DNA of 64,000 nucleotides from an uncultured Candidatus Saccharibacteria bacterium (GTDB taxonomy: Bacteria > Patescibacteriota > Minisyncoccia > Phycocordibacterales > Zambryskibacteraceae), in the NCBI GenBank assembly GCA_964342515.1, contig CAYFFP010000001.1, positions 78,204 through 142,203 on the forward strand, given 5' to 3'. Below, one piece after another: positions 1,067 through 14,323 of this stretch (positions are counted from its first letter, which is position 1; every line of letters starts with the position of its first letter). Both the position numbers and the translations under genes were made by a program. Under the pieces are notes generated by a model that was not told the origin of the DNA, did no database searches, and was given only the letters and a program-made list of their open reading frames with translations.

Positions 1067-1475
1067 AAAACGCATGACCATTGTTCGTAACCCCGGGACA
1101 ACGGATACGCCATGCTTGAAAATAGCTAATCGGCTATTGGAAGCAAATGGTTTCAGCGTAGGAACGCCAGTTCTGGTTTCTTATCGCGCCGGGGAAATTG
1201 TTATTACTTCTAACTTAGAAAATCAACATGTACAAAACAAATTACAAAAGCCGTGTCCTCTCGCCGATTCAGCCGTCGCGGATTCACCCGGCGGAAAAGA
1301 TGCGCCGGAAGGCCTTGGATACGCAGGACGAAACTCATCCGATTCGCAAAGAAATCAGGCGAATGTGCGGAGATTATCGTTTTACGGCAACCTTTACCGA
1401 AGATACGGACGCGCTGAAGAACTTTCCTCACATTTCCGGGTTGGTAGCGGTGAAATGTTTGCTCGCGAAAGATAA
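1041..1475 (+). CDS. ORF whose N-terminal part (approx 1074-1215) resembles the SymE/AbrB-fold (SpoVT/AbrB-like) domain; C-terminal part is low-complexity and overlaps another frame (possible frameshift or pseudogene)
   Basis: The motif LKIANRLLEANGFSVGTPVLVSYRAGEIVIT resembles the SymE-toxin/AbrB swapped-hairpin signature (LKGKWLEEAGF..G..V.V....G.LVI). The remainder of the ORF is Arg/Ser-rich filler and overlaps the 1228..1842 frame. Confidence 0.3.
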   Translation: MSSNSMIVKKRMTIVRNPGTTDTPCLKIANRLLEANGFSVGTPVLVSYRAGEIVITSNLENQHVQNKLQKPCPLADSAVADSPGGKDAPEGLGYAGRNSSDSQRNQANVRRLSFYGNLYRRYGRAEELSSHFRVGSGEMFARER

Positions 1476-1842
1476 TCAGCCTCTGGCCGAGGGTCATGGT
1501 TACGCCATTCTCACACGCATTAATAAGAGCATAGAGAGAACCGCGCTGGTTTGTATCAACGCCTCGTTCCTTTCTGCGTGCAACAACGCTTGTAAAATTT
1601 GGGATTCTCTTCGGCTTGACGCGCCGGCCGTAACTGGCCCAAAGGGTCTCGGGGAAGAATACAGGATTCAAGAGGAAGAGGTCGACAACATGGCAACAAT
1701 CCGCCAAGTCGATTATTTGAAGCAATTAATTCAAATTAATCTCGACGATCCTGAACGAGAGCAGCGATTGGCAGAAGTTGAAGGGCTCACAAAAGAAGAA
1801 GCGAGTCAGGCAATTGCCCAATTTGCCAACTTCGCAAACTAA
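1228..1842 (+). CDS. Hypothetical protein
   Basis: 204-aa ORF in a different frame from 1041..1475. No known motif. It ends where composition shifts from GC-rich to AT-rich. Confidence 0.35.
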   Translation: MYKTNYKSRVLSPIQPSRIHPAEKMRRKALDTQDETHPIRKEIRRMCGDYRFTATFTEDTDALKNFPHISGLVAVKCLLAKDNQPLAEGHGYAILTRINKSIERTALVCINASFLSACNNACKIWDSLRLDAPAVTGPKGLGEEYRIQEEEVDNMATIRQVDYLKQLIQINLDDPEREQRLAEVEGLTKEEASQAIAQFANFAN

Positions 1843-1960
1843 AGCTTCACAGAATAGCGGCTTCCGGCAACGGGGCCGCTATTTTTGTGCTACGATTACC
1901 ATAATTCTATGGAAGGACTATCGCCAAAAAAAGTTGAGATTTGTTGGGATTAAATATTTT

Positions 1961-2350
1961 ATGAATAAACACATTAAAACAAGCATTATAATTATTGCCC
2001 TGCTAATTATAGTCATCGCAACCTGGTGGTTTGTAAAACAATCTAATAAAAATACTGTCTATACGGATACAGAAGATACTAAACCTTGGGGTTTAATTGG
2101 TGGAGAAGGAGAAAGGATTTATTTGGACTATGGAGTTATCTATGCAGATATAGAAAGCCCAGATAAAGAATATAATATTGTAAATTATGTAGTCCACGTA
2201 ACCGCAGAGCGATACAAGAAGTTGATATTTTTTGATACGCCAGAAGAAGCAGAAAAGGCGGGATACAAGCCATCAGAAGATTTCGCTAAAGAGTACACCT
2301 GTTTCAATGAAGGGAAAGATACTATGGAATGTTCTGGGGTGTTTGATTAG
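1961..2350 (+). CDS. Hypothetical membrane-anchored protein (N-terminal TM helix)
   Basis: Internal ATG of ORF 1778..2350 chosen to avoid overlap with the upstream gene. MNKHIKTSIIIIALLIIVIATWWF looks like a signal-anchor. AT-rich. Confidence 0.4.
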   Translation: MNKHIKTSIIIIALLIIVIATWWFVKQSNKNTVYTDTEDTKPWGLIGGEGERIYLDYGVIYADIESPDKEYNIVNYVVHVTAERYKKLIFFDTPEEAEKAGYKPSEDFAKEYTCFNEGKDTMECSGVFD

Positions 2351-2465
2351 TAATCATGGACTGACTCTGATATACTAAACACACAATGCAACGCTTTAGA
2401 TTTAGATAGCCACCAAACGAACACCACATTCTCTCGTGGTTGTTCCTGGTGGCTTTTTGGTATTT

Positions 2466-2539
2466 GCCTTTGTAGCTCAATGGTAGAGCAGCGGAGTGAA
2501 GTCCCGAAGACGGAAGTCCAATTCTTCCCAAAGGCACAA
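2466..2539 (+). tRNA. tRNA-like gene, possibly tRNA-Phe(GAA), with a weak anticodon stem (possible pseudogene)
   Basis: Acceptor GCCTTTG/CAAAGGC. D-arm GCTC-AATGGTA-GAGC. T-arm GGAAG-TCCAATT-CTTCC. Candidate loop GTGAAGT gives anticodon GAA, but the stem has only 3 Watson-Crick pairs and the T-loop has C55. No encoded CCA. Confidence 0.35.
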
Positions 2540-2540
2540 T

Positions 2541-2612
2541 GCCCTCGTACGTTAATGGATAGACGGCCTGTGTTCTATCTAGGCAGTGGGGGTCCGATTC
2601 CTCCCGAGGGCG
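2541..2612 (+). tRNA. tRNA-Arg(TCT), non-canonical (G32, C55 in T-loop)
   Basis: Acceptor GCCCTCG/CGAGGGC. D-stem CGTT/GACG with loop AATGGATA. Anticodon stem CCTGT/CTAGG (one closing mismatch), loop GTTCTAT, anticodon TCT. T-arm GGGGG-TCCGATT-CCTCC. Confidence 0.5.
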
Positions 2613-2708
2613 CACGGTGTATAATCTAAATTATGAAAATAGATCCTAAAGAACTGGCAGATTTTGCGAAGATTTATAATAAGAATATAAATTACTTCAT
2701 TAAATAAT

Positions 2709-3197
2709 ATGCTTTACATATTTTTAACTATAATAATAGGTTTACTGATTAAACTAATTTATTTCCCAAGAGATAAAGGGGTAGAAGCACAGACGTACTG
2801 GAATAATTTGTTTGGTCGTAAGATACATATTCTGGACTATAGAAAAGATGATCCGAGAAACAAAACGCACCCAGAGGAGATGGTCAGGATGAAGGATGGT
2901 AGCCTTTCACATAGAAAACTGGCAATGTTGCTTGATGTGGTACAAGAAAAAACACCAAAAGAAATAGCGGATGAACACGAAAAAGAAGCTGAAAAGTATG
3001 GTTTTAAGGTATCTAAAGAACCTTATTCTTTAGTGTCGTTCCTAAATGAAGGAAAGGGTGTTGGAGGTGTAAAGAAACTAAAAAAAGCGGAGAAAAAAGT
3101 ATTAGAAAGGTTGAAAAAAGACAAGAAACCATCAAAAATAGATTGGGCAAAACTTCATTTAGAAGCTCTCAAAAAGATAGGCAAAACTGAAAAATAA
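2709..3197 (+). CDS. Hypothetical protein, N-terminal TM helix, Lys/Glu-rich C-terminus
   Basis: 162-aa ORF in an AT-rich island; no known motif. Confidence 0.4.
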   Translation: MLYIFLTIIIGLLIKLIYFPRDKGVEAQTYWNNLFGRKIHILDYRKDDPRNKTHPEEMVRMKDGSLSHRKLAMLLDVVQEKTPKEIADEHEKEAEKYGFKVSKEPYSLVSFLNEGKGVGGVKKLKKAEKKVLERLKKDKKPSKIDWAKLHLEALKKIGKTEK

Positions 3198-3287
3198 AAG
3201 TAAACAAGGTCAATAATATAGCTTCAGCTACGCTATTTTTGTGCTAATTGTGATAATGTTCAATGATGTTACTACTCTAGCATCAAC

Positions 3288-4388
3288 ATGAAGCGCATTT
3301 ACTTATTTATATCTACCCGGATCAAGCTTGGTTTCCTATTTATAATTATTTTAGTTCCAGCAATACTTGCTCTCCCGAAACCGTTATCCTGGAAGCCTTT
3401 TTACTATAATGAATTATCTTTGATAGTAGAACTAAGTAATGTAGTTTTGGGAAATGAAAGTACGCCTTTTGTGATTCCACATAAAATTGACGCTATTGGT
3501 AAGTCTCCCTTTTTGTATCTACTAGGAATTGAAACTGGCTCAATGCCCACTTTCATAGATATAAGCAATACAAGTAAGATTATTGGTAACGATGGTGTGT
3601 TGATAGATTCTCAAACTTTTTTGGATAAAGGAGGAGTCGTCGATATCTTTGTAAACTTAAATCAAGATAACAAAGAATTGATGATTAAAGTCCCACTTGC
3701 CACATCTACGCGTGAATTTATCACCGCGACCAATGCCTCACATGTGGATGGTGAAATCAGATGGGGAGTCGGTAATACGCTACAAACAGAAAAGTTATGG
3801 AGACAGATAGTATTTGATATGACAGCGAAAATAGGGTTCGAGTTTAAATGGAACATGTATTTGGTAAACTTCTTCATATTATTAGGAGGCTGGATTATTT
3901 TCTTATCATCCCTAATACAAGTTTTTCATGTTTTAATAAAAGACAAAATGAAAAGTAAATTTTATACTGCAGGAGCCATTGAAGAAATGATGGATCTTTC
4001 AAATGAACTGATTCCAGATGAAGAGTGCGGCAAACTAGCAAAATCCCTAACGTTTTTACCGACAGAAGTGGTAGATTTTCTTGATGAAAAGTACGCGTTT
4101 TTAAGTCCTAGTGCTGATGGCTGGACATTGAATTTAAGCGATGAACGTTTGCGGGAGAAAGAGGATCTTAAGGGCTTCATTTTATTACATCCGGATCTTT
4201 GGGAAAAGGACGAGATGACGATTGCCTATACTGTGGCGCATGAATCAGTACATGCTTTCAGGCAACATGGAGATGAGAGAACGCTTGAACAGGAGAAGGA
4301 AGCGGATAAACTTGCCGTAGAGTGGCTTTCTGAACATTTTAAGAAAAAAGATTTATTGAAAGTATGTTTTTATCTCGGGAAACACTAA
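3288..4388 (+). CDS. Membrane protein with C-terminal HExxH zincin-like domain (ImmA/IrrE, M78-like)
   Basis: N-terminal signal/TM and an internal TM. C-terminus VAHESVHAF...EQEKEADKLAVEWL matches HExxH plus the downstream E..A..FA..LL pattern of the ImmA/IrrE metallopeptidase family. Confidence 0.5.
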   Translation: MKRIYLFISTRIKLGFLFIIILVPAILALPKPLSWKPFYYNELSLIVELSNVVLGNESTPFVIPHKIDAIGKSPFLYLLGIETGSMPTFIDISNTSKIIGNDGVLIDSQTFLDKGGVVDIFVNLNQDNKELMIKVPLATSTREFITATNASHVDGEIRWGVGNTLQTEKLWRQIVFDMTAKIGFEFKWNMYLVNFFILLGGWIIFLSSLIQVFHVLIKDKMKSKFYTAGAIEEMMDLSNELIPDEECGKLAKSLTFLPTEVVDFLDEKYAFLSPSADGWTLNLSDERLREKEDLKGFILLHPDLWEKDEMTIAYTVAHESVHAFRQHGDERTLEQEKEADKLAVEWLSEHFKKKDLLKVCFYLGKH

Positions 4389-4482
4389 CGGATAGAAAAA
4401 TAACCCAATGCTTGCTAGAGTATTAACTACTTTAGATGCAGGCGAAATTTCCCAGTAAAATAACAGTTTAGTTAAAGCGATT

Positions 4483-7400
4483 ATGACTACCTCGACAAAA
4501 AAGCCCACAGACACACCTATTGATCCAAAGATCAAAACAATAAGAGATTACCAGGAAAAAGTGGTAGATCTTTCTCGACGAAACCGTCTCCTGAAGTATC
4601 CTTTGAAGGCTCGCCGAATCTCATTTGATCTGAGTCTGCAAGATTTCCATGAGAATTATGGAATGTCTGAAGATTTTAGTATGGAATTTCTTCACAAACT
4701 TGTTCTTGCACAAGATGAGGATGGAAGTCAATTGCCACTATTTCACAATAAAAGGGGCAGAAAAAATGAAAATCAGAAATTCACTCCAATTACGACCCCT
4801 AAAGGAGAGAAGCTACTCAATGCTTTTATATCGCTTAGACTGGATGCCAAAAGAAAATTTGAAGAACATGGCTTAAATACTCTTTTTCTGACAATTGGAA
4901 AGATAAAGTGGAAAGAAAAACAAACAGGGAGAGGTTCTTCCGATGCGAGTGATGAATGGGATTATAATGCCCCATTACTCCTGATTCCTATAAAGATAGA
5001 GGACTACAGACAGCCGATAAAAAAGACGGTAATAAGGCAGGACTTTGAGAGCGGAGAGATTAGCGTTAATCCGATTTTGAGATTATTCCTAGAACGGCAA
5101 TACGGCATTGTAATTCCTGACCTGGAAATTCCGGAAGAAGTTGAAAATATCTCCATCCTCGTTAACAAGTTTGTAACAAAGTTTAAAAAGGCTTTTTCTG
5201 ATTCAAAAATTAAACACAATATCGATTTAGATATAGAGATTGGACAGTACTCATTCTACGGACAACAGATTTACGAGGATTTAAGGGATAACGAGGAGGA
5301 AATAGCAGACAATCCTTTCATTACTTCTTTATGTGAAAAGGCTTCCTTAACTCAAAAAAACTTTTCTGATGTTGAACCTAACCCCGAAAGACTTCTGGAT
5401 CCGGAGGAAGACTTCAGCATACTGGATGCCGACGTTAGTCAATTAGAAGTAATCCAGAAGGTCATATGGGGCCAGAGCATGGTTGTTCAAGGTCCACCGG
5501 GTACCGGCAAAAGCCAGACTATCGTAAATCTTGTTTCTAATCTGCTTGCTAGAGGTAAGAGCGTATTAGTAGTCTGCGAAAAACATGTTGCTTTGGAGGT
5601 TGTCTTGAAAAGATTAAAAGATGCCGGTCTGGACAAGCTCTGCTTACCCCTATTTCAATTCAGTACAGACAAAAGCCGTTTCGCTAAAAGTATAATCGAA
5701 GATAGAAATTACATCATTAAAAATTTCTCTTCAGAAAATAGAGCACTTCACTCTTCTTTGGAACTTAGACAAAAGAGTATAAATAAATTGAAAGATTATG
5801 CAAAAACTCTTTCAAAAATAATTGAACCATTGGGCAGAAATGTATTCTGGGTACATGGAGAATTATCTCGGATGCAGTCGATTAATTCTGACGACCCTAT
5901 CTTATGGAAGGGAAATGATCTACAGGCCATCACTTTTCCAGAATATCAAGAGTTAATTACTCTTACCGCCAATATAGCTCCGATATTAAAGAAAAAGGAA
6001 GAAAATGCAGTTGATTACTGGCAGTCAATAAAGAAAGAGCATTTCTCTCCCGACTACGCAACGCGAGTATTTCAGGCTCTGTCTGACGCTAAAAGAAATC
6101 TTAGTTCTTTAATAAAGATTAAGCCTGATTTGCTACCAATCCATTCCGTCTCCGATATTAAAAAAGCAGTAGAACTCAAGGAAAAAATAACTTCAATTTT
6201 ACCTCTAGATTTGCATAACTTGGGAATCAGAACTGACACTTCCATAGAAGATGTGATTACTGGGTTAAAAAAGCTAAATAAGATGTTGTCATTGTATGAA
6301 AAGACAAACTCTTCCTTAGCAAAGAAATACCTTGTACCGGAATCATGGTATTTACCAAACCAAAGTCATTTTGACGGCTTGAATGACAATGTCCTAATTG
6401 TTGATATTGAGAAGGCGGAAATAGAACTGAAAGCAACTGAGGACTCCTTAAAATTTACTAAGAAATTCCTATCTCAAAATAAGGCAGATTACTTAATTGC
6501 TCTACCGATCAATGAACTTTCGAAATATATTCCACTTTTCGAGCTAGATTCCGTCTTAAAGAAGCTTAGTTCATGGAATAACATTGGCTCACTTAAGTCT
6601 GCTGCTGAATCGATAGGGGTACTCTATGCGATTTATCAAAAATTGGAATCGGCTAAGCTCGAGTTTGAAAAGAGAGCCATTACTTTCGCTGATCTCAATG
6701 AATCAGAGGCCCTGGTGATCGCCGACAGATTTCAAGAGAAATATAAGTATTTTTTTAGATTTATTTTCCCTCAATACAAAAAGGATTGCATGGTAATTGC
6801 TTCATGGTGCGGAGTTGAAGTGCCGGTGAAATTCGCTGATTTCAATAAGATTGTCTTAAGTGTTCAAGATTGTTTTAGGCTTACCACGAAGTTTAAAGCT
6901 CTTTTGTCGCAGTTTAATCAGAAATGGACTCAAAAGAAAGATGGAGTTGGGTATGCTTCAATTCCAGGGTTGCATACGAATTTATCTAGATTGATCGATT
7001 GGCTCACTCTTGAAGGTAAGGAAGAACTGCCTCCTCAATTATTCAAATTTATTGAAACTAATCTAGATAATGAAGATCTGAAGACCTTGCCGTTAAGTCT
7101 GAATTCAATAAGCAAACTGTTGAACAATTTTTTAAAGGTTTTCAACTTAAATGATTCCCTATCCTTTAACGAGATTGAAAGTAAAAGAAGATCTTTGGAT
7201 AATCAAATAAAGAATATTATTCAGAACTACAGAAATGTCGTCGAGATTCTCCCAGAAAACCAACCAAAAACAGTCGACGAGATGAAGAGTGATATAGCTG
7301 CGATAAATCAACTGGCGGATGTCTTGAAAACAGTATCGAAAAAAGAACTGGATGACTTATTTCACCCAGAAACTAGCCTAAGGGAAATTGTCGGTCTCTC

Positions 7401-9396
7401 CTTACGATTCAATAAGGAAGGTGAGAAACTAGAAAAGATATCTGGGGCGGTTTCTAAATTTATTCCTGAATCAACCGCCTTAAGTTTAAGTCTGTTTAAT
7501 GATCTTCTCTTAAAATTGAACGAGAAAAGCATTCTCTGGGAACAACCTCTTGAGCAATACGAAACTTCCATTTCTAATCTTGATGGCCTCTTTGAAACTG
7601 AAGGTAGTCTAGCGCATCTTGAATTATTAAATCTTTCGGAACAGGATAAATCCCTTACTAAAATGAATTTGGATGTAGGTGGATTAGAAAATCAAATGAA
7701 TTTTGCAAGATATGCACATGTTTTTAGAGACAAAGGACATGAGTGGTTTCTCAAGGATATAAATGGCAAATCGATTGCCAACCTAAGTGCATTATTTGCT
7801 CAGTCCCTCTGGAACGCATGGCTAGATAATTATTACCGGAAAAATCCGGCCTTGAGAGACTTCAATATTCTTGAGCACAAGAAGGTCATGGCTGATTTCA
7901 AGGCGCTTGAGAGAGAAGTCTTGAAGATTAATGCCGCCCGAGTGATGGGGAAAGTCGGACCAATAGTTAAATCCCATAAATTACATTGCAATCAAGCTGA
8001 CGAGAGATATTTGGTCCATCAAAGTGAGCTCCAGCGTAGGCATAAGCCTATCCGGCAAGTAGTTACCAATTGCCCGGATCATCTCCAGGGTTATAAACCA
8101 TGTTGGATGATGAGCCCTCTGACCCTAAGCTCTTATATTCCCTATGGGAAAATGAATTTTGATGTCGTTATTTTTGACGAGGCATCTCAAATGAGAGTAG
8201 AACATGCTCTTGGTGCTATTGCTCGAGCCGGTCAAGTTGTTATATTTGGAGATGAACACCAATTGCCGCCTACCTCTTTCTTTGAAGTGACTTCCGAAGG
8301 AGACGAGGAATCCGAAGAAGAACAGGACTTTGAAAGTATTCTCCATGCCTCTAAAACGGTGCTTCCGAACGCAGACGAATCACTCTTATATCATTACCGA
8401 AGTAAACATGAGGACTTAATCGCTTTTTGCAATTATGAAGTCTATGATGGCCGTCTTATCACTTTTCCAAATCCAACTATAAGTAAGAGTGTGGGATTCG
8501 TGCATGTGGCGGATGGTGTATTTGATGGAGCAGTAAGTAGAGAAGGATATTCCGGCACAAGGAGAAATGATATCGAGGCTAAAAGAGTTGCCGAAGTCTG
8601 CGCCCAACATGCCGCTGATTATCCGGATAAATCTATCGGTGTGATCGCTTTCAGTAAGAGCCAAGAATTGGCTATAAGAGATGCCGTTATTAATCTGCTT
8701 GAGACAAATCCGGAAGTAAGGGATAAGCTGAATGAGGATGATCCTAGCTCTGATGCTTTCTTTATTAAAAATCTCGAATCAGTACAGGGTGATGAAAGAG
8801 ATATCATCGTCCTCTCAATTGGATATGCCAGAGATAAGAATGGCGATATGCATAACCGTTTCGGTCCTATAAATGCGAGAAGTGGCTATCGTAGGTTAAA
8901 TGTAGCTTTTACTCGCGCTAAAGAAAAAATTGTCTGCGTCTCCTCTATAAAGGCTACTGATATAAGGCCAGGCCCTACTGCCAGAGGAGCCAAGATGCTC
9001 CAACATTACTTGGATTATGCTGAAAATGGTCCTGCCGTATTGGTTTCTAGCCTGCTGGTCCAAAATAATGCAGTCGATGTCGATAGTCCATTTGAACTTG
9101 ATGTTGAAAAAGCCCTCATGGATCGAGGATACAAAATTGAAAGACAGGTTGGCGCTTCCGGATATAAGATCGATTTGGCGGTTATTGATCCTAAAAATGA
9201 CGGTCAATACATTTTAGGTATTGAATGCGATGGTGCTACTTACCACTCCTCTTATTCAGCTAGGGTAAATGACCGGCTTAGGCAAGATGTTCTAGAAAGG
9301 TTAGGTTGGAAAATCTATAGGGTTTGGTCTCAGCACTGGATCACTCATAAGAGTGAGATCGTTGACGACATTACTCGATCAATAAGTAAGATTTAA
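4483..9396 (+). CDS. Large SF1 (Upf1-like) helicase with N-terminal DUF4011-like region and C-terminal DUF559/Vsr-like PD-(D/E)xK endonuclease; Hhe-like
   Basis: Walker A GPPGTGKSQT. Motif II VIFDEASQM. AAA_12 motifs DERDIIVLSIGYAR and NVAFTRAKEKIVCVSS. N-terminus RRNRLLKYP is typical of DUF4011. C-terminus GYKIDLAVID...GIECDGATYHSS...RQDVLERLGWKIYRVWSQHW is a DUF559/Vsr-type nuclease fold. Confidence 0.85.
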   Translation: MTTSTKKPTDTPIDPKIKTIRDYQEKVVDLSRRNRLLKYPLKARRISFDLSLQDFHENYGMSEDFSMEFLHKLVLAQDEDGSQLPLFHNKRGRKNENQKFTPITTPKGEKLLNAFISLRLDAKRKFEEHGLNTLFLTIGKIKWKEKQTGRGSSDASDEWDYNAPLLLIPIKIEDYRQPIKKTVIRQDFESGEISVNPILRLFLERQYGIVIPDLEIPEEVENISILVNKFVTKFKKAFSDSKIKHNIDLDIEIGQYSFYGQQIYEDLRDNEEEIADNPFITSLCEKASLTQKNFSDVEPNPERLLDPEEDFSILDADVSQLEVIQKVIWGQSMVVQGPPGTGKSQTIVNLVSNLLARGKSVLVVCEKHVALEVVLKRLKDAGLDKLCLPLFQFSTDKSRFAKSIIEDRNYIIKNFSSENRALHSSLELRQKSINKLKDYAKTLSKIIEPLGRNVFWVHGELSRMQSINSDDPILWKGNDLQAITFPEYQELITLTANIAPILKKKEENAVDYWQSIKKEHFSPDYATRVFQALSDAKRNLSSLIKIKPDLLPIHSVSDIKKAVELKEKITSILPLDLHNLGIRTDTSIEDVITGLKKLNKMLSLYEKTNSSLAKKYLVPESWYLPNQSHFDGLNDNVLIVDIEKAEIELKATEDSLKFTKKFLSQNKADYLIALPINELSKYIPLFELDSVLKKLSSWNNIGSLKSAAESIGVLYAIYQKLESAKLEFEKRAITFADLNESEALVIADRFQEKYKYFFRFIFPQYKKDCMVIASWCGVEVPVKFADFNKIVLSVQDCFRLTTKFKALLSQFNQKWTQKKDGVGYASIPGLHTNLSRLIDWLTLEGKEELPPQLFKFIETNLDNEDLKTLPLSLNSISKLLNNFLKVFNLNDSLSFNEIESKRRSLDNQIKNIIQNYRNVVEILPENQPKTVDEMKSDIAAINQLADVLKTVSKKELDDLFHPETSLREIVGLSLRFNKEGEKLEKISGAVSKFIPESTALSLSLFNDLLLKLNEKSILWEQPLEQYETSISNLDGLFETEGSLAHLELLNLSEQDKSLTKMNLDVGGLENQMNFARYAHVFRDKGHEWFLKDINGKSIANLSALFAQSLWNAWLDNYYRKNPALRDFNILEHKKVMADFKALEREVLKINAARVMGKVGPIVKSHKLHCNQADERYLVHQSELQRRHKPIRQVVTNCPDHLQGYKPCWMMSPLTLSSYIPYGKMNFDVVIFDEASQMRVEHALGAIARAGQVVIFGDEHQLPPTSFFEVTSEGDEESEEEQDFESILHASKTVLPNADESLLYHYRSKHEDLIAFCNYEVYDGRLITFPNPTISKSVGFVHVADGVFDGAVSREGYSGTRRNDIEAKRVAEVCAQHAADYPDKSIGVIAFSKSQELAIRDAVINLLETNPEVRDKLNEDDPSSDAFFIKNLESVQGDERDIIVLSIGYARDKNGDMHNRFGPINARSGYRRLNVAFTRAKEKIVCVSSIKATDIRPGPTARGAKMLQHYLDYAENGPAVLVSSLLVQNNAVDVDSPFELDVEKALMDRGYKIERQVGASGYKIDLAVIDPKNDGQYILGIECDGATYHSSYSARVNDRLRQDVLERLGWKIYRVWSQHWITHKSEIVDDITRSISKI

Positions 9397-10985
9397 TGGT
9401 AATTACAAAATCAGATTATGTTTTATGGAGGGAATGTCCTCATAACTCTTGGGTAAAAAAGTGGAAGCCTGATCTTTATCACTCATCTCCATTGTCAGAC
9501 TTCGAGAAGCACCTGATTAATTCCGGAAATATGGTCGAGGAGACAGCTCGATTAAGATTTCCAGAGGGGGTGCTTATTAAAAGTAAGGGTGACGAAGCTT
9601 TAAGTAAAACTCAGGAGTTTTTAAAAAGCGATTCCGGTACTATTTTTCAAGCCTCGTTTTCAGATGGGACTCTTTTCGCCGCAGTAGATATTTTAAAACA
9701 CACTGGAAGCAAAGGGATGCAGCTTTATGAGGTTAAGGCTTCTAATTCATCAAAAACAGAATCAGAGGAGGACGAGATTAATAATGATGGAGATGAAGTA
9801 GTTAACAAGCTTGATCCAAAAGCATTAGAAAAGTACAAGAAGGAACTACTTAAGGACCACCATCTCTACGACCTTGCTTTTCAGGTCTACCTAGCCCGTA
9901 AGATTGGTCATAAGGTTACCGGGGCGTACCTTATGAGGTTGAATAAACAATATGTACGCGCTGGAGAGATTGATCTAAACAAACTTTTTGTAATTGAAGA
10001 CGTGCTTTCTTATGTCGACGAGGTACTTCCAAGAGTTAAGGAGGACATACAAATCTTAACCAAAATCCTTACTTCTTCTAGTGAACCAAAAGGGCCTTGT
10101 TGTTGTCTTAATAAAGGCAGATCCAATCATTGCACCACTTTTGCGATCCACAATAAGGATGTTCCATCCTACAGCGTCCATGACCTTACGGCTATTGGAA
10201 GAAGTAAGAAGAAACTAGATGAACTGATTGATTCTGGAATATACGACATTTTAGACATACCTGACGGTTTTGAATTTGGTAAGAAAATCCAAAAGCAAGT
10301 AGAGGTGCATAAGCGAGGCAAGGATTCTATTGATTACGAAACAATAGAGAGTGAACTTAAGACATTGCAATTTCCCCTTTACTTTCTTGACTACGAATCA
10401 TTTAATCCTGCTATACCACGTTTTTCTGGTTACAAACCATATCAACACATGCCTTTTCAGTTTTCAGTACACAGATTAGATAAACCAGATGGCGATCTAA
10501 TACATTCTGAATTTCTTTATACCGGCACAGAAGATCCAAGTCCTCTTTTTGTAGAAGCCTTAAAGAAAGCTATTGGTAAAAGCGGCAATATAATCGTGTG
10601 GTATAAACCTTTTGAAGAATCGCATATAAATAAAAAGATAGCTATTCGTATTCCCGAATGTGCTGATTTTATAAATGATTTAAACTCTCGCATGTTTGAC
10701 CTTATGACTATTTTTTCTAAACAGCTCCATATTCATCCAGATTTCCATGGTAGTGCCTCTATCAAAAAGGTCTTACCAGTTATATGTCCAGAACTTTCTT
10801 ATAAAGAAATGGAGATTGGTAATGGATCGGAAGCAATGAATACCTGGAATAAGTTAGTTATGGAAGAAGTATCAGATAAAGAGCGTCTAGGAGTAGAAAA
10901 GAATATGCTTGAATATTGTGGGCTCGATACATACGCCATGTATAAAATTTGGAAACATCTCATAGAGTTGAATAGCCACATATGA
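9396..10985 (+). CDS. DUF2779-family predicted nuclease (PD-(D/E)xK/Cas4-like N-terminus with Cys cluster, C-terminal exonuclease-like half)
   Basis: Start overlaps the helicase stop (TAATG). N-terminus KSDYVLWRECPHNSW resembles the DUF2779 SKS.F..G.QCPKRLW signature. EVKAS and DLAFQ blocks and a CCCLNKGRSNHC Cys cluster are present. Confidence 0.6.
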   Translation: MVITKSDYVLWRECPHNSWVKKWKPDLYHSSPLSDFEKHLINSGNMVEETARLRFPEGVLIKSKGDEALSKTQEFLKSDSGTIFQASFSDGTLFAAVDILKHTGSKGMQLYEVKASNSSKTESEEDEINNDGDEVVNKLDPKALEKYKKELLKDHHLYDLAFQVYLARKIGHKVTGAYLMRLNKQYVRAGEIDLNKLFVIEDVLSYVDEVLPRVKEDIQILTKILTSSSEPKGPCCCLNKGRSNHCTTFAIHNKDVPSYSVHDLTAIGRSKKKLDELIDSGIYDILDIPDGFEFGKKIQKQVEVHKRGKDSIDYETIESELKTLQFPLYFLDYESFNPAIPRFSGYKPYQHMPFQFSVHRLDKPDGDLIHSEFLYTGTEDPSPLFVEALKKAIGKSGNIIVWYKPFEESHINKKIAIRIPECADFINDLNSRMFDLMTIFSKQLHIHPDFHGSASIKKVLPVICPELSYKEMEIGNGSEAMNTWNKLVMEEVSDKERLGVEKNMLEYCGLDTYAMYKIWKHLIELNSHI

Positions 10986-11815
10986 AATATTTAAAGATAT
11001 TAGGAATATCAGTATCAGTCATCCTTATCCTGCTTGTAGTTATCGGATTCTCTCTAGGTAATCCAGAGTCAAATAAATTTTCTAGCTCGCAGGAAGTAAG
11101 CCAGGACATACCGGATAAGGAGCAAGTTCAGCAAACGGCTGCTGTAGAGACTGCAGAGCTGGATGTACCGGGAAGTCAAGGACCATATCAAGTAATCAAA
11201 GTGGTTGATGGCGATACCATAACGATTGATCTGAACGGCAAAGCGGAAACAATCCGGCTTATTGGCATCAATACTCCAGAAACAGTTGATCCAAGAAAGC
11301 CGGTGGAATGTTTCGGCGTAGAGGCTTCAAACAAGGCCAAAGAACTTTTAACAAACAAGCGCGTGTATATTGAGATGGACCCGACCCAAGGAGAGCGAGA
11401 CAAATACAGTCGCTTGCTTGCATATGTATATCGTGAGGACGGATTCTTCTTTAATAAGTCCATGATCCTTAGTGGCTATGCTTACGAATATACCTACAAC
11501 ATCCCCTATAAATACCAGAGTGAATTTAAGGAAGTACAGAGAAATGCCGAAATCAATCAAAGAGGCTTATGGGCTCCTGGTGTCTGTGAAGAAAAAGAAG
11601 CTACGCCAACACAGCAATCTACGCCGACACCTACACCTACGCAACCAACCCAATCAACTTCCGGATATTCATGCTCGGCAAATACATACAACTGCACAGA
11701 CTTCTCCACTCATGCCGAAGCTCAATCTGTTTATGAAATGTGCGGAGGGATAAATAACGATATTCATAGGCTTGATCAAGATAAAGATGGTGAAGCTTGT
11801 GAATCTTTGCCGTAG
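10982..11815 (+). CDS. Secreted thermonuclease (staphylococcal nuclease/SNase-like) with C-terminal Excalibur Ca-binding domain
   Basis: ATGA start/stop overlap with the upstream gene. N-terminal TM/signal. Block VDGDTITIDLNGKAETIRLIGINTPE...RLLAYVY...QRGLWA matches the SNase fold. C-terminus DQDKDGEACESLP is the Excalibur DxDxDGxxCE motif. A Thr/Pro/Gln linker separates the two. Confidence 0.8.
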   Translation: MKYLKILGISVSVILILLVVIGFSLGNPESNKFSSSQEVSQDIPDKEQVQQTAAVETAELDVPGSQGPYQVIKVVDGDTITIDLNGKAETIRLIGINTPETVDPRKPVECFGVEASNKAKELLTNKRVYIEMDPTQGERDKYSRLLAYVYREDGFFFNKSMILSGYAYEYTYNIPYKYQSEFKEVQRNAEINQRGLWAPGVCEEKEATPTQQSTPTPTPTQPTQSTSGYSCSANTYNCTDFSTHAEAQSVYEMCGGINNDIHRLDQDKDGEACESLP

Positions 11816-11839
11816 GAAATATATTACTATCGTACGAAA

Positions 11840-12190
11840 ATGGACGAAAAAGCAGAAAACAAAAATGATAAGCCGGTTCTATCAAAAGCCAATAAAATTC
11901 TTATATTGACTCTTGCTATATTTTTTCTTGCATTCTCCATATTCAACGTATATTCAGAAATCCGGAAACAATTTATGTGTAGCCAGATGGCGCTTTTTAA
12001 TGCCCAAGTGCCACCCTCCGACATTGATAGTTATATCTTGCGTAAAGAAGCTTTTGAAAACGTATGCCTTGAAAGAACCGGTCTCGGAAGTTACTTTTGG
12101 GCTTTTGCTAGTTTCTGGTTTCTCGGCTATGCCATAACCCTTTTCGCTAAGCATACAGAAAAAGTGCAAGTAGCCGATAAAAAGATTTAG
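11840..12190 (+). CDS. Small hypothetical membrane protein
   Basis: 116-aa ORF with two hydrophobic helices; no motif. Confidence 0.35.
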   Translation: MDEKAENKNDKPVLSKANKILILTLAIFFLAFSIFNVYSEIRKQFMCSQMALFNAQVPPSDIDSYILRKEAFENVCLERTGLGSYFWAFASFWFLGYAITLFAKHTEKVQVADKKI

Positions 12191-12269
12191 CGGAAATTAG
12201 ATGTCCATCAAATTGCCGGTATAAACCTTACAGACGGCCATAACTGCAAAATCCCGCTGAACTCAAGCT

Positions 12270-12278
12270 CCCGTGCTA
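12270..12278 (+). promoter_or_regulatory. -10-like element (TGCTATAAT) upstream of the DUF1508 gene
   Basis: tgctataat lies 8 nt upstream of ATG 12286. Confidence 0.4.
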
Positions 12279-12285
12279 TAATACG

Positions 12286-12486
12286 GTGATGGCAGGAAAA
12301 AATAGAATCGAAATAAATAGAGCGAAAAACAAGCAACTTTTTCTTACAATCAAGAGTGCTAATAATAAGAAGATTCTTCACAGCGAGACATATAAGTCCA
12401 GACAGGGAGTAGAAACTGCTGTGAAAGCCGCGAAAAAGATCATCAAGAACCCTAAGATAGTAGATAATACTAGAGGTAAGAAGTAG
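12286..12486 (+). CDS. DUF1508 (YegP-like) family small protein
   Basis: 66 aa. FLTIKSANNKKILHSETYKSRQGVETAVKAAKK matches the DUF1508 repeat signature (f.L.A.NG..i..SE.Y.s...a..gI.sVk). Confidence 0.5.
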   Translation: MMAGKNRIEINRAKNKQLFLTIKSANNKKILHSETYKSRQGVETAVKAAKKIIKNPKIVDNTRGKK

Positions 12487-12581
12487 TTTACTGGTATATA
12501 TAAATGGTTAATTCAGCGAATTTCTTAACCTTTATTTTGCTTTGTTCGTGTAATTTTGTTATCTTTGTTTTGATAGAAGAA

Positions 12582-12654
12582 GGGCCCTTAGCTTAGTTGG
12601 TAGAGCGCCGCATTTGCAATGCGGAGGTCGGGAGTTCGAATCTCCCAGGGTCCA
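12582..12654 (+). tRNA. tRNA-Ala(TGC)
   Basis: Acceptor GGGCCCT/AGGGTCC with G3:U70. D-arm GCTT-AGTTGGTAG-AGCG. Anticodon arm CCGCA-TTTGCAA-TGCGG. T-arm GGGAG-TTCGAAT-CTCCC. Discriminator A, then CC. Confidence 0.85.
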
Positions 12655-12661
12655 CCGTTTT

Positions 12662-13105
12662 ATGGAAAGAGAAAAATGGCATGTAGAAAAGTTACCTGCT
12701 GGGTATCCTACTCAATGTAGTAATGAAGATCTTAGTAATGCCTTGCAAGACTTAATAGACGAGTATCGCCAAAAAAAACTTGGCGGTAAGAATAATAAAA
12801 TATGGGAAGATATAATCTCTCAACTCATTAAGCAAGGTCGTGATGAAATGTCTAGTAGAATAGAGAAACACGGTCCAATCACTATAACCTATGCTGGCGG
12901 AGAAGGCGGTAAGGGAGGGCTTTGGAGCGGTGGAGGTGGTGGTGGAGGTGCAGGACCTGGTGGTGGCAGAGGTGGAGATGGGGGTTCAGTTGTCGTAATG
13001 CCACCAAAAACATCTGGGGTATGGAAATGGATTTTTGATCACGTTTTTCAGATTATTGTGGCAGTAATCGTAGCGGCTATAGTTTACTGGCTTGGCTGGA
13101 GTTAA
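12662..13105 (+). CDS. Hypothetical Gly-rich protein with C-terminal TM helix
   Basis: ORF 12614..13105 trimmed to the first ATG downstream of the tRNA. It contains a GGEGGKGGLWSGGGGGGGAGPGGGRGGDGG low-complexity tract. Confidence 0.35.
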   Translation: MEREKWHVEKLPAGYPTQCSNEDLSNALQDLIDEYRQKKLGGKNNKIWEDIISQLIKQGRDEMSSRIEKHGPITITYAGGEGGKGGLWSGGGGGGGAGPGGGRGGDGGSVVVMPPKTSGVWKWIFDHVFQIIVAVIVAAIVYWLGWS

Positions 13106-13138
13106 GTTATTTCTAAGTTTTATATACTATATCCACAA

Positions 13139-13327
13139 ATGAAACCGCAACATTTTGACATCCTTGGTTCATTGGCTTTTGCTTACATTACAGGGTTTGC
13201 TCTGTATGCATTGCTGAACAACGGAAACGCTCCGATGTGGAGTATCGTACTCCTTATATTTGTCGGAATCGGAGGATTAGTTGTTGACCTTGTTATCGTT
13301 TTTTTATATTTCATTCGAAAGAAGTAA
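13139..13327 (+). CDS. Small hypothetical membrane protein
   Basis: 62 aa with two TM helices. Confidence 0.3.
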   Translation: MKPQHFDILGSLAFAYITGFALYALLNNGNAPMWSIVLLIFVGIGGLVVDLVIVFLYFIRKK

Positions 13328-13423
13328 ATCCTTTGATCTTGCTAATTCTACTAACTGCCTAACTTCTTGTACGATCTGGTTCCAGTCAAATATACTTAGG
13401 TTCACCACAAAATCAGTAGATGG

Positions 13424-14323
13424 CTAAATAACCAAGTCATTCAGTGGGTGTTTGTTCATTTGCAACCTCAAATGCTCTGCGCTGGCAGAAAGGTAAATTG
13501 TGGTTGTCTTGATGTCACTGTGTCCCATTAGTCTAGAGAGGGAGAATATATCACAGCCACCAGTTAGCATTAATGTAGCATAAGTATGCCTTAGCTTATG
13601 AATTGTAAAATTGATTTTGGAAGTTTCTTTTATTTTTCTTACTAGATTTCTGAGTCCCATGTCTGTAAATCCACAATTCCGGTTGAGCGATGCAAAAAAT
13701 TCTGGACAAGTCTTATTGAGTCGTTTTCGCTCGTCCAAATAGCGTTTTAGGCTCTGGGCCAACGCGCTACACATTGGTATTATTCGATCCTTGCCACCTT
13801 TGCCTTGGTTGACGAATATGCTCAGATTTTCCACGTCTACATCGGTGTATTTCAATTTCAAAAGCTCTTTCTTTCGCAAGCCGGAGAAAAGGAAGGTTGA
13901 AAATATGGCGTGATTTCTATATCTCAAAAATTTGTAGTCGTAGGGGTAGTTATAAACAACCTCAACGAGCTTGAGAGCATCTTGTTTGGTTAGGCAGGAT
14001 GGCAGACGTTTTTCCACCTTGGGTATTTCCAGATCATCAGCTGGATTCTTTGTCAGATATTTTTCACTCACGCACCACTTAAAAAATACCGTCAGAGAAT
14101 GGTAGAAACAAATAAATGAGTTAGGTTTCCAGTTGCGTTTGGTCCTGCCGTTGAAAAAGAATTGTCGGACATTTTCTTCCGTCACTTGTTCTATTTCCGA
14201 AACTTCTGCCAACCTCGAGTACAAGTTGATCGCTTGTCTATATCGTCGAATCGTTGCTGGTCTGTAGCCACGCATATACAACGAATAATCGTAAAACTTC
14301 TGAGCCAATATTTGTATATTCAT
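13424..14323 (-). CDS. Tyrosine site-specific recombinase/integrase (phage-integrase family)
   Basis: C-terminal block HKLRHTYATLMLTGGCDIFSLSRLMGHSDIKTTTIYL carries the His/Arg/Tyr catalytic motifs. It lies adjacent to tRNA-Ala genes and a truncated tRNA copy. Confidence 0.85.
   Translation of the reverse strand: MNIQILAQKFYDYSLYMRGYRPATIRRYRQAINLYSRLAEVSEIEQVTEENVRQFFFNGRTKRNWKPNSFICFYHSLTVFFKWCVSEKYLTKNPADDLEIPKVEKRLPSCLTKQDALKLVEVVYNYPYDYKFLRYRNHAIFSTFLFSGLRKKELLKLKYTDVDVENLSIFVNQGKGGKDRIIPMCSALAQSLKRYLDERKRLNKTCPEFFASLNRNCGFTDMGLRNLVRKIKETSKINFTIHKLRHTYATLMLTGGCDIFSLSRLMGHSDIKTTTIYLSASAEHLRLQMNKHPLNDLVI

What the first reader, a model, noticed from the sequence alone, without database searches (positions are those of the whole stretch)
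3288..11815. Candidate defense-like nuclease cassette: Hhe-like giant helicase-Vsr/DUF559 fusion + DUF2779 nuclease + secreted thermonuclease, preceded by an ImmA-like HExxH membrane protein
Three translationally coupled genes sit in an AT-rich island flanked by tRNAs and a tyrosine integrase. The overlaps are TAATG at 9394-9398 and ATGA at 10982-10985. The first gene is a 1637-aa DUF4011-like SF1/Upf1-like helicase with a C-terminal Vsr-like endonuclease, the architecture reported for the single-gene Hhe antiphage system. The second is a DUF2779 PD-(D/E)xK-type nuclease. The third is an exported SNase with an Excalibur domain. An HExxH (ImmA/IrrE-like) membrane protein lies immediately upstream. 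As far as I know this coupled combination has not been characterised. It could be a multi-nuclease anti-MGE module, or, given the secreted SNase, a nucleic-acid scavenging operon of a small-genome symbiont.
Basis: partly seen in the sequence, partly recalled or inferred. Interest (0 to 1): 0.8.

Follow-up and report, generated by a model that had tools for sequence, protein, structure and literature searches.

The report
Helicase-nuclease paired with Cas4-DEDD nuclease
A horizontally acquired island in a small-genome (Patescibacteria-type) bacterium carries a giant Hhe-like helicase-nuclease coupled to a two-headed DUF2779 nuclease. This pairing recurs in many other genomes and looks like an undescribed two-gene variant of a known anti-phage system. 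The secreted nuclease and the membrane protease next to it are local add-ons.

Summary
The four ORFs, both start/stop overlaps and all domain calls are real.

The three-nuclease cassette as a unit is not conserved. What recurs is a two-gene core:
- a giant SF1B helicase ending in a Vsr-like endonuclease (Hhe / PDC-S37 / ProA superfamily, below the equivalog cut-offs);
- a DUF2779 protein, which structure prediction shows to be a Cas4-like Fe-S PD-(D/E)xK nuclease fused to a DEDDy 3'-5' exonuclease.

In the window's DUF2779 clade, 5 of 9 independent contexts carry a giant helicase-Vsr gene next to DUF2779, and 4 of 9 carry RmuC or DUF2130. Across about 95 loci the helicase is the only large recurrent neighbour. 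Every helicase seen within +-10 kb abuts DUF2779. On plasmids of other phyla DUF2779 follows NACHT or AAA+ ATPases, often with a WYL gene after it.

The SNase-Excalibur gene and the HExxH membrane protein occur only in this lineage. The HExxH domain belongs to a small zincin family whose members hit Peptidase_M78 and M48.

Best reading: a mobile anti-MGE DNA-degrading module (confidence 0.5). It is a new variant of a known kind. No experiment exists.

The parts
4483..9396 (+). 1637-aa giant helicase-nuclease. It has an N-terminal DUF4011, a split SF1B (Upf1/Dna2-like) helicase (Walker A GPPGTGKS at 337-344, DEAS at about 1232) and a C-terminal Vsr-like MTES_1575/DUF559 endonuclease (D1564, E1581-C-D1583-G, H1588). 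There is no DUF3320 tail.
   Evidence: Pfam. PADLOC PDC-S37 955.6 bits and Hhe 477.6 bits. NCBIfam ProA 892 bits against a 1500 cut-off, Hhe 677 against 2000. Motifs. PDB sequence hits to the Upf1, IGHMBP2 and Dna2 helicases.
9396..10985 (+). 529-aa DUF2779 protein, a fusion of two nucleases. The N-terminal half is a Cas4-like PD-(D/E)xK nuclease (D98, E112, K114) with four conserved Cys (C14, C235, C237, C246), consistent with an Fe-S cluster. The C-terminal half is a DEDDy 3'-5' exonuclease (D332, E334, D435, Y507, D511). Its ATG overlaps the helicase stop codon.
10982..11815 (+). 277-aa exported staphylococcal-type nuclease. It has an N-terminal signal or anchor helix, an SNase domain (67-199; R35, E43 and R87 equivalents kept, the D40 equivalent is N), a Thr/Pro/Gln linker and a C-terminal Excalibur Ca-binding domain. 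It is start/stop-coupled (ATGA) to DUF2779, but this arrangement occurs only in this lineage.
   Evidence: Pfam SNase 79 bits and Excalibur 25.3. NCBIfam NucI 116 bits against a 250 cut-off. PADLOC C3a212 SNc+LTD 163 bits. Alignment to S. aureus nuclease. Absent downstream of DUF2779 in the other loci.
3288..4388 (+). 366-aa membrane protein. Layout: TM helix, beta-rich domain of about 160 aa, TM helix, then a 150-aa C-terminal minimal zincin domain (HESVH 318-322, then E-x-x-A-D). It is a lineage-specific neighbour 94 bp upstream of the helicase and is not a conserved part of the module.
   Evidence: No Pfam hit. Weak hits over the HExxH region: Lit 6e-4, U49 1.2e-3, phrog_87 metallo-protease 7.7e-4. 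Only three homologues, which share the N-terminal 220 aa only. The C-terminal domain has 63 mostly stand-alone relatives of about 150 aa. Of 40 of these, 19 hit Peptidase_M78 and 16 hit M48, and HExxH...E..AD is nearly invariant. The AlphaFold2 model is unusable (pLDDT 48.8).
11840..12190 (+). 116-aa predicted membrane protein downstream of the SNase. Function unknown. Found only in the other copies of this locus.
   Evidence: No Pfam, NCBIfam or PADLOC hit.
2466..2613 (+). Two tRNA genes to the left of the cassette. ARAGORN and Rfam both call 2541-2613 (tRNA-Arg TCT). Only Rfam calls 2466-2536.
12582..12656 (+). tRNA-Ala (TGC) to the right of the cassette. An inverted, 85% matching copy of its first 48 nt lies at 14497-14544. 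The two arms bracket the recombinase gene.
13424..14323 (-). 299-aa tyrosine recombinase of Xer type.
   Evidence: Pfam Phage_integrase with SAM-like N-terminal domains. NCBIfam XerA 181, XerC 174, XerD 166 bits, all below cut-off.
1..14500 (.). Low-GC (34-46%) region holding the cassette. It continues about 5 kb beyond the window's left end.

Best explanation
The functional unit is a two-gene module on a horizontally acquired, low-GC island of a Patescibacteria-type chromosome.

Gene 1 (4483-9396) is a giant SF1B helicase with an N-terminal DUF4011 and a C-terminal Vsr-like endonuclease. It belongs to the superfamily that holds the single-gene anti-phage protein Hhe and the candidates PDC-S37 and ProA.

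Gene 2 (9396-10985) is translationally coupled to gene 1. It is a DUF2779 protein that joins a Cas4-like Fe-S PD-(D/E)xK nuclease to a DEDDy 3'-5' exonuclease.

Proposed mechanism (inferred, not shown):
1. The helicase-nuclease loads on foreign or aberrant DNA, such as phage or plasmid replication or recombination intermediates.
2. It nicks the DNA with its Vsr-like domain and unwinds it 5'->3'.
3. The DUF2779 partner destroys both displaced strands. The Cas4-like domain acts from the 5' side and the DEDD domain from the 3' side.
4. A nick thereby becomes irreversible degradation. In effect this is a split Dna2/AddAB-type resection machine turned against invaders.

The exported SNase-Excalibur nuclease is co-transcribed only in this lineage. 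It most likely degrades extracellular DNA, for nucleotide scavenging or as an outer barrier. The membrane-anchored zincin protein upstream is also a lineage-specific neighbour. Neither is part of the conserved module.
For: Shown here:
- Domain architecture and intact catalytic motifs of both proteins.
- Start/stop overlap of the two genes.
- The helicase's best models are defence models: PDC-S37 956 bits, Hhe 478, ProA 892.
- The window's DUF2779 belongs to a monophyletic clade of about 530 aa (59-73% identity) spread over different Patescibacteria classes. Typical Saccharibacteria copies are only 42-43% identical. This points to horizontal transfer.
- In that clade 5 of 9 independent contexts have a giant helicase-Vsr gene just upstream. 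Four of 9 have RmuC or DUF2130, and one has FtsK plus ExoX.
- Seven more pairings occur among 80 GTDB loci. The helicases fall into four divergent subfamilies, most ending in a Vsr-like motif; in L008 a DUF3320 tail follows the nuclease domain.
- The L008 partner is a full-length PDC-S37 (1201 bits).
- The helicase family is the largest neighbour cluster of DUF2779. The other neighbours split into 130 small clusters.
- Every helicase within +-10 kb of DUF2779 is adjacent to it, or separated by one gene.
- From the helicase side, relative P0047 has a convergent PDDEXK_1 + RNase_H_2 protein of 505 aa. This is an analogous Cas4-like plus RNase H-like nuclease.
- Neighbourhoods are defence- or MGE-like: SAVED/SMODS, MmeI-type RM, Abi_C, SduA_C, N6_N4 methylases, S24 and S49 peptidases, serine recombinases.
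- On plasmids of Campylobacterota, Betaproteobacteria and Cyanobacteria, DUF2779 directly follows NACHT or AAA+/IetA-like ATPases. WYL, PLD, MkoC-like helicase, dGTPase and toxin-antitoxin genes lie nearby.

From the literature: Hhe is a validated single-gene helicase-nuclease defence whose triggers are phage DNA-metabolism genes (bioRxiv 10.1101/2024.10.10.617714).
Against: - There is no experiment on this protein pair.
- The helicase is below the NCBIfam equivalog cut-offs for Hhe and ProA and lacks the DUF3320 tail. PDC-S37 is itself only a candidate.
- Most DUF2779 genes (about 70 of 80 GTDB loci) have no helicase neighbour. Some sit by housekeeping genes such as rpoD, dnaG and dsbA.
- DUF2779 is quasi-essential in JCVI-syn3.0 and matters for M. 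bovis growth in cell culture, which suggests a housekeeping role for at least part of the family.
- Three of five helicase relatives whose contexts were read have no adjacent dual nuclease.
- DUF2779 matches no PADLOC model.
- The samples are small, many are MAG contigs, and the tree is a crude neighbour-joining tree.
Confidence: 0.5

Rival explanations
1. A DNA end-processing, recombination or repair module. The helicase-nuclease and the Cas4-DEDD nuclease, with RmuC or DUF2130 in other genomes, act as a split Dna2/AddAB/AdnAB-like resection machine. It would serve the host or the mobile element itself (replication restart, recombination, element maintenance) rather than immunity.
For: - The helicase's PDB sequence hits include Dna2.
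- RmuC, DUF2130, FtsK and ExoX recur as partners.
- DUF2779 is quasi-essential in the minimal Mycoplasma cell.
- SbcCD-like genes lie next to the Aliarcobacter plasmid copy.
Against: - The helicase's best matches are defence models.
- Distribution is patchy and transfer is horizontal.
- Neighbours include CBASS-like, RM, Shedu-like, Abi and toxin-antitoxin genes.
- The partner NTPases are interchangeable (SF1B, SNF2, AAA_13, NACHT, AAA+). That is typical of defence modules, not of a conserved repair pathway.
Confidence: 0.2
2. Chance neighbours in a variable hotspot. The helicase-nuclease is a self-sufficient single-gene defence, as Hhe is. DUF2779 is an unrelated, mostly housekeeping nuclease that happens to border a site where such genes insert.
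For: - Hhe and PDC-S37 are defined as single-gene systems.
- Three of five helicase relatives whose contexts were read have no adjacent dual nuclease.
- Most DUF2779 genes have no helicase neighbour.
- In P. aeruginosa a core DUF4011 gene flanks a defence hotspot.
Against: - The genes are start/stop-coupled or 4-7 bp apart in four lineages: the window, L020, L029 and L101.
- Four divergent helicase subfamilies pair with DUF2779 across separate branches of its tree.
- No helicase lies in a non-adjacent position within +-10 kb.
- An analogous Cas4-like plus RNase H-like protein lies next to another relative.
- ATPase-DUF2779 operons exist on plasmids in unrelated phyla.
Confidence: 0.13
3. A nucleic-acid scavenging operon of a small-genome symbiont. 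The exported SNase cuts environmental or host DNA. Imported DNA is then unwound and reduced to nucleotides by the helicase-nuclease and the two-headed DUF2779 exonuclease.
For: - The SNase is exported and start/stop-coupled to DUF2779 in this lineage.
- DUF2779 is widespread in Patescibacteria and Mycoplasma, which depend on nucleotide salvage.
- Both DUF2779 domains are exonuclease-type.
Against: - The SNase is linked to DUF2779 in this lineage only.
- The helicase and the window's DUF2779 clade are sporadic and horizontally moved, and they sit among defence or MGE genes, not salvage or competence genes.
- A 1637-aa helicase with a Vsr-like nickase is not needed for salvage.
Confidence: 0.12

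Closest known systems
Hhe (single-gene anti-phage helicase-nuclease; NCBIfam NF042953, PADLOC PDLC02194)
   Same: N-terminal DUF4011, an SF1 AAA_11/AAA_12 helicase split by a long insert, and a C-terminal Vsr-like MTES_1575/DUF559 endonuclease.
   Different: Scores 677 bits against the 2000-bit equivalog cut-off, and the match covers only residues 869-1635. There is no DUF3320 tail. Here the gene is translationally coupled to a DUF2779 nuclease, whereas Hhe is described as a single gene.
PDC-S37 (PADLOC single-gene defence candidate, PDLC05009)
   Same: It is the best-scoring model for the window helicase (955.6 bits, E 1.6e-287). A full-length PDC-S37 (1201 bits) sits upstream of RmuC and a 65%-identical DUF2779 in locus L008.
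   Different: The window protein matches in three stretches rather than end to end. PDC-S37 is a candidate with no reported test in the library searched. It is defined without a partner gene.
ProA (NCBIfam NF058533, 'anti-phage protein ProA')
   Same: One long alignment: residues 17-1636 against profile positions 357-1705.
   Different: Scores 892 bits against a 1500-bit cut-off. The profile has about 350 extra N-terminal and about 200 extra C-terminal positions. No paper on ProA was found.
Dna2 / AddAB / AdnAB helicase-nucleases
   Different: Here the nuclease is a separate polypeptide that also carries a DEDDy exonuclease. The helicase carries its own Vsr-like endonuclease and a DUF4011 domain. 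The genomic context is mobile or defence-like, not core repair.
DUF2779 / PF11074 family, e.g. MMSYN1_0389 of JCVI-syn3.0 (Cas4-like + DEDD fusion)
   Same: The same two-domain architecture and catalytic residues.
   Different: The window protein keeps all four Cas4-type cysteines, whereas MMSYN1_0389 has two. It belongs to a mobile clade of about 530 aa with an acidic insert of about 34 aa, and it is paired with a giant helicase.
Staphylococcal nuclease / thermonuclease NucI with Excalibur domain
   Same: An SNase fold with the R35, E43 and R87 equivalents, an export signal and an extracellular Ca-binding Excalibur domain.
   Different: Below the NucI equivalog cut-off (116 against 250 bits). 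The D40 equivalent is N. It is coupled to an intracellular nuclease gene only in this lineage.

Membership tests
Hhe (NF042953 / PDLC02194) | DUF4011 N-terminal domain | tested here: met
   PF13195, 58.5 bits against a 22.2 cut-off, residues 27-203.
Hhe (NF042953 / PDLC02194) | SF1 helicase core (AAA_11/AAA_12) with intact Walker A and B | tested here: met
   AAA_11 63.9 bits, AAA_12 58.7 bits. GPPGTGKS at 337 and DEAS at about 1232.
Hhe (NF042953 / PDLC02194) | C-terminal Vsr-like (MTES_1575/DUF559) endonuclease | tested here: met
   PF18741 113.9 bits at residues 1537-1633, PF04480 24.3 bits. The D...ExDG...H motif is present.
Hhe (NF042953 / PDLC02194) | Score at or above the NCBIfam equivalog cut-off (2000 bits), with full-length match | tested here: not met
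   677 bits, matching residues 869-1635 only. PADLOC Hhe gives 478 bits over residues 1183-1636.
Hhe (NF042953 / PDLC02194) | C-terminal DUF3320 domain, present in many Hhe-like relatives | tested here: not met
   No PF11784 hit for the window protein. It is present in more distant relatives and in the L008 helicase.
Hhe (NF042953 / PDLC02194) | Protects against phage as a single gene | not testable with these tools
   Needs cloning and phage challenge.
PDC-S37 (PADLOC candidate) | Significant match to the PDLC05009 profile | tested here: met
   955.6 bits, E 1.6e-287, in three stretches; the best is residues 1014-1636 against profile 723-1340 of 1550. The match is not end to end, unlike the L008 helicase.
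ProA (NF058533) | Score at or above the equivalog cut-off (1500 bits) | tested here: not met
   892.3 bits.
DUF2779 / PF11074 Cas4-DEDD fusion | PF11074 domain above the gathering score | tested here: met
   125 bits against a 23.3 cut-off, residues 329-455.
DUF2779 / PF11074 Cas4-DEDD fusion | N-terminal Cas4-like PD-(D/E)xK fold with D...ExK and Cys ligands | tested here: met
DUF2779 / PF11074 Cas4-DEDD fusion | C-terminal DEDD(y) 3'-5' exonuclease fold with the four acidic residues and Tyr | tested here: met
DUF2779 / PF11074 Cas4-DEDD fusion | Nuclease activities and a bound Fe-S cluster | not testable with these tools
   Needs biochemistry.
ImmA/IrrE (Peptidase_M78, PF06114) | Match of the protein itself to PF06114 | tested here: not met
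   No Pfam hit for the whole protein. None for the isolated C-terminal domain at E<=10.
ImmA/IrrE (Peptidase_M78, PF06114) | HExxH plus a downstream E..A(N/D) zincin motif, and relatives that match M78 | tested here: inconclusive
   H, E, H, E, A and D are nearly invariant in a 40-member alignment. Of the 40 members, 19 hit M78 (best E 1.4e-6), 16 hit M48 and 7 hit SprT-like. This supports a zincin of the M78/M48 neighbourhood but does not prove ImmA.
ImmA/IrrE (Peptidase_M78, PF06114) | Adjacent HTH (ImmR-like) repressor partner | tested here: not met
   No HTH family was found in the neighbouring ORFs 2709-3197, 1778-2350 or 1228-1842.
Staphylococcal nuclease (PF00565) with Excalibur | SNase and Excalibur domains above cut-off, with catalytic Arg/Glu/Arg | tested here: met
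   79 bits and 25.3 bits. The alignment to 1kdc keeps R35, E43 and R87; the D40 equivalent is N.
tRNA-targeted integrative island | Direct att repeats formed by a tRNA 3' end at both island borders | tested here: not met
   No such repeats in the window or in L001. The only tRNA-derived repeat is an inverted 48-nt copy of the tRNA-Ala 5' part.
tRNA-targeted integrative island | Deviant composition and recombinase genes | tested here: met
   GC is 34-46% over about 19 kb, against 47-54% outside. A Xer-like recombinase lies on the right and a 365-aa phage-type integrase on the left.

The most novel reading that the evidence does not exclude
DUF2779 (Cas4-like + DEDD) nucleases are a general, so far unrecognised effector or accessory module of prokaryotic immunity. 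They plug into interchangeable NTPase sensors or motors: Hhe/PDC-S37-type helicase-nucleases, SNF2, AAA_13, FtsK, NACHT and IetA-like AAA+ ATPases, often with WYL regulators. They occur from Patescibacteria to Proteobacteria. The window is one instance. The family's quasi-essential member in the minimal Mycoplasma cell would then be a domesticated relative.
Probability: 0.3. Interest if true: 0.7.

Novelty: new variant of a known kind. Interest (0 to 1): 0.52.

Why it matters
If the pairing is functional, three things follow:
- A family filed as single-gene (Hhe / PDC-S37) has a two-gene form with a dedicated strand-degrading partner.
- The widespread DUF2779 family gets a testable role as the nuclease arm of NTPase-driven DNA surveillance. 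One DUF2779 member is quasi-essential in JCVI-syn3.0 and of unknown function.
- Patescibacteria, whose immunity is poorly known, gain a defined mobile defence module.

It also warns against reading every translationally coupled gene as part of a system. The SNase and the protease are local additions.

Tried and rejected
- The metagenome scan for close DUF2779 relatives returned only 7 loci.
- IMG/VR and GenBank phages hold no DUF2779 relative, so it is not an evident phage gene.
- A PDB sequence-profile search with the DUF2779 alignment found nothing. Only the fold search worked.
- AlphaFold2 of the 366-aa protein was too poor (pLDDT 48.8) for a fold search. Its isolated domains gave no Pfam or PDB hit. 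The ORF at 18935-20035, also 366 aa, is not a paralogue.
- No att-type direct repeats mark the island ends. The 25-nt inverted pair at 3192/13281 is only 80% matched and was treated as chance.
- Promoter and terminator scans gave no more sites than shuffles and do not define the transcript.
- Literature searches for ProA, PDC-S37, PF11074 and the taxonomic range of LOOT RNA gave nothing usable.
- Cluster look-ups gave no organism names. The taxon is therefore stated only as Patescibacteria-type. This rests on the relatives' MAG labels and on two LOOT RNA hits. From memory, that RNA family is linked to oral TM7; this was not verified.
- The idea that the whole four-gene block is one system was rejected on the conservation data.

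Full report
**1. Observation**

The four ORFs lie exactly where stated:
- 3288-4388, 366 aa
- 4483-9396, 1637 aa
- 9396-10985, 529 aa
- 10982-11815, 277 aa

The junctions read TAATG at 9394-9398 and ATGA at 10982-10985.

- Helicase: DUF4011, AAA_11, AAA_12, MTES_1575 and DUF559.
- Second gene: DUF2779, 125 bits.
- Third gene: SNase and Excalibur.

The region is AT-rich, with GC of 34-43% against 47-54% further right. tRNA genes lie on both sides. A tyrosine recombinase lies at 13424-14323 on the - strand.

Two other metagenome assemblies carry the identical locus. One of them extends 5.5 kb further left. There the low-GC region continues to a 365-aa phage-type integrase, a ParB_N protein and an S49 peptidase. 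The 299-aa recombinase on the right scores best against Xer models. No att-type direct repeats were found.

**2. The helicase**

The best profile hits are to defence models:
- PADLOC PDC-S37, 955.6 bits, and Hhe, 477.6 bits.
- NCBIfam 'anti-phage protein ProA', 892 bits against a 1500 cut-off, and Hhe, 677 bits against a 2000 cut-off.

Walker A, the DEAS box and the Vsr-like D...ExDG...H motif are intact. PDB sequence hits are to the SF1B helicases Upf1, IGHMBP2 and Dna2. The protein lacks the DUF3320 tail seen in many relatives.

It is therefore a relative of Hhe, PDC-S37 and ProA, not an equivalog of any. Its nearest non-self homologue is only 48% identical. Relatives occur in Patescibacteria and Dependentiae MAGs.

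**3. The DUF2779 protein**

Published analyses describe PF11074 as an RNase H-like 3'-5' exonuclease joined to a DUF83/Cas4-like PD-(D/E)xK domain (PMC3985635 and PMC13621843). I tested this directly.

A 23-sequence alignment has these invariant or nearly invariant residues:
- D98, E112 and K114 (the PD-(D/E)xK motif).
- C235, C237 and C246 invariant, with C14 nearly invariant.
- D332, E334, D435, Y507 and D511 (the DEDDy motif).

The protein is thus a two-headed nuclease. The Pfam 'DUF2779' segment itself is the exonuclease, not the PD-(D/E)xK part.

**4. Co-conservation**

*From the DUF2779 side.* The window protein belongs to a monophyletic clade of about 530 aa, at 59-73% identity, with an acidic insert. 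Ordinary Saccharibacteria copies are only 42-43% identical. Nine independent contexts of the clade were read:

| Context | Gene order |
|---|---|
| Window | helicase - DUF2779 - SNase |
| L005 | helicase - small gene - DUF2779 |
| L008 | full-length PDC-S37 helicase - RmuC - DUF2779 |
| L009 | helicase - DUF2130 - DUF2779 |
| L101 | Fic - helicase - DUF2779 |
| L100 | FtsK - DUF2130 - DUF2779 - ExoX |
| L092 | RmuC - DUF2779 |
| L099 | GIY-YIG - DUF2779 - pyrophosphatase - NucS-like - SduA_C |
| L012 | no partner |

Among 80 GTDB species loci, seven more have a giant helicase abutting DUF2779. Four are upstream on the same strand and three are convergent.

The partner helicases fall into four subfamilies that barely align with one another. 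Most end in a Vsr-like motif; in L008 a DUF3320 tail follows the nuclease domain.

When the immediate neighbours of all loci are clustered, the helicase family is by far the largest cluster. The rest split into 130 small clusters. Every helicase seen within +-10 kb of DUF2779 is adjacent to it or one gene away. A shared-island effect alone would not predict this.

Other recurrent partners are SNF2 helicases, AAA_13 ATPases and RmuC. Some copies sit by rpoD, dnaG or dsbA instead.

*From the helicase side.* Of five relatives with readable context:
- Three have no adjacent dual nuclease. They lie among SAVED/SMODS, MmeI-type RM, Abi_C, methylase and serine-recombinase genes. One of them has a DUF2130 gene two genes upstream.
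- One has DUF2779 convergent (L054).
- One has a convergent 505-aa PDDEXK_1 + RNase_H_2 protein, an analogous Cas4-like plus RNase H-like nuclease.

*Plasmids.* Thirty-one PLSDB plasmids from other phyla carry DUF2779. In 5-6 of the 9 read, it directly follows a NACHT or AAA+/IetA-like ATPase. Three have a WYL gene after it. PLD, MkoC-like helicase, dGTPase, Fic and toxin-antitoxin genes lie nearby.

DUF2779 is absent from IMG/VR and from GenBank phages. The window protein matches no PADLOC model.

**5. The other two genes**

*SNase.* It has an N-terminal hydrophobic export helix, a complete SNase domain, a Thr/Pro/Gln linker and an Excalibur domain. The R35, E43 and R87 equivalents are kept, and the D40 equivalent is N. 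It is clearly extracytoplasmic. It is linked to DUF2779 only in this lineage.

*The 366-aa protein.* Its layout is a TM helix, a beta-rich domain, a second TM helix and a 150-aa HExxH domain.
- The whole protein has three homologues, which share only the N-terminal part. The one homologue whose context was read is not near a helicase or DUF2779.
- A full-library phmmer search with the C-terminal domain found 63 relatives, mostly stand-alone proteins of about 150 aa.
- HExxH...E..AD is nearly invariant among them.
- Of 40 relatives, 19 hit Peptidase_M78, 16 hit M48 and 7 hit SprT-like.

So 'ImmA-like' holds only at the level of a minimal zincin near M78/M48, and no HTH partner is present.

**6. 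Interpretation**

The conserved unit is the helicase-nuclease plus the DUF2779 gene. I propose the following. None of these steps has been shown.
1. The SF1B motor loads on invader or aberrant DNA.
2. Its Vsr-like domain nicks the DNA.
3. The Cas4-like and DEDD domains of the partner digest the unwound strands from the 5' and 3' sides.

This would work like a split Dna2/AddAB machine turned against mobile DNA. Hhe itself is a validated single-gene defence, triggered by phage DNA-metabolism functions.

Three rivals remain open, and each is weighed in its own section:
- a repair or recombination role;
- a chance hotspot juxtaposition;
- a scavenging operon.

**7. Novelty and limits**

The library holds only eight papers that mention DUF2779, DUF4011 or PF11074 in any relevant way. 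None describes this pairing. I rate the finding a new variant of a known kind.

Limits:
- Everything is computational.
- The samples are small, and many are MAG contigs.
- The tree is a neighbour-joining sketch.
- I could not run DefenseFinder or a genome-wide enrichment test with controls.

Noticed in passing
window 297-418 (-) and 21133-21253 (-): Two full-length matches to the LOOT RNA family (RF03000), at 76 and 71 bits against a gathering score of 46. Both lie in low-GC, mobile-looking DNA. Their function is unknown.
   Followed up: no
window 12582-12629 and 14497-14544: A 48-nt inverted repeat, 85% matched. One arm is the 5' part of tRNA-Ala(TGC). The other is a reverse-oriented tRNA fragment. 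Together they bracket the Xer-like recombinase gene and two small ORFs. This may be the scar of a rearrangement or an invertible segment.
   Followed up: partly
window 25622-28007: A large serine recombinase (545 aa, Resolvase + Recombinase) overlaps the start of a 271-aa protein that matches phrog_23947 at 361 bits. Upstream, at about 18.9-25 kb, lie several ORFs with no family match in low-GC DNA. This looks like a second mobile element or prophage remnant. Serine recombinases also flank the helicase/DUF2779 modules in other genomes.
   Followed up: partly
window 29131-31908: The leucyl-tRNA synthetase carries a NUDIX domain (residues 339-470, 54 bits) inserted next to the editing domain. 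This architecture is unusual.
   Followed up: no
window 16517-16588 and 17112-17183: A 72-nt direct repeat, 93% identical. Each copy ends in a perfect GC-rich palindrome (ATCCAACGGCTCAA..TTGAGCCGTTGGAT). The copies flank a stretch of about 0.5 kb with short ORFs. They may be terminators or a small repeat element.
   Followed up: no
window 2466-2536: Rfam calls a tRNA here at 56.9 bits. ARAGORN does not report it. It lies 5 nt upstream of tRNA-Arg(TCT).
   Followed up: no
window 12614-13105: A 163-aa ORF starts inside tRNA-Ala, so its start is probably miscalled. It encodes a glycine-rich stretch (GGEGGKGGLWSGGGGGGGAGPGGGRGGDGG) followed by a C-terminal TM helix. No family matches it.
   Followed up: no
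L003 12929-15047; L099 13447-14676; JGI contig of P0010 (no DNA held): Relatives of the module sit beside SAVED + SMODS (CBASS-like), SduA_C (Shedu-like), an MmeI-type RM enzyme and Abi_C genes in Patescibacteria MAGs. A recurrent backbone of a 424-aa N6_N4 methylase, an S24 peptidase and an S49 peptidase suggests a family of integrative elements in these bacteria.
   Followed up: partly
L105-L113 (PLSDB plasmids): ATPase - DUF2779 - WYL gene trios occur on plasmids of Rhodoferax and Diaphorobacter, and a PD-(D/E)xK nuclease - DUF2779 - WYL trio on one of Aliarcobacter. NACHT or AAA+ ATPase - DUF2779 pairs occur in Aliarcobacter, Helicobacter and Planktothrix. None of the DUF2779 proteins matches a PADLOC model, apart from weak Cas4 hits.
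   Followed up: partly
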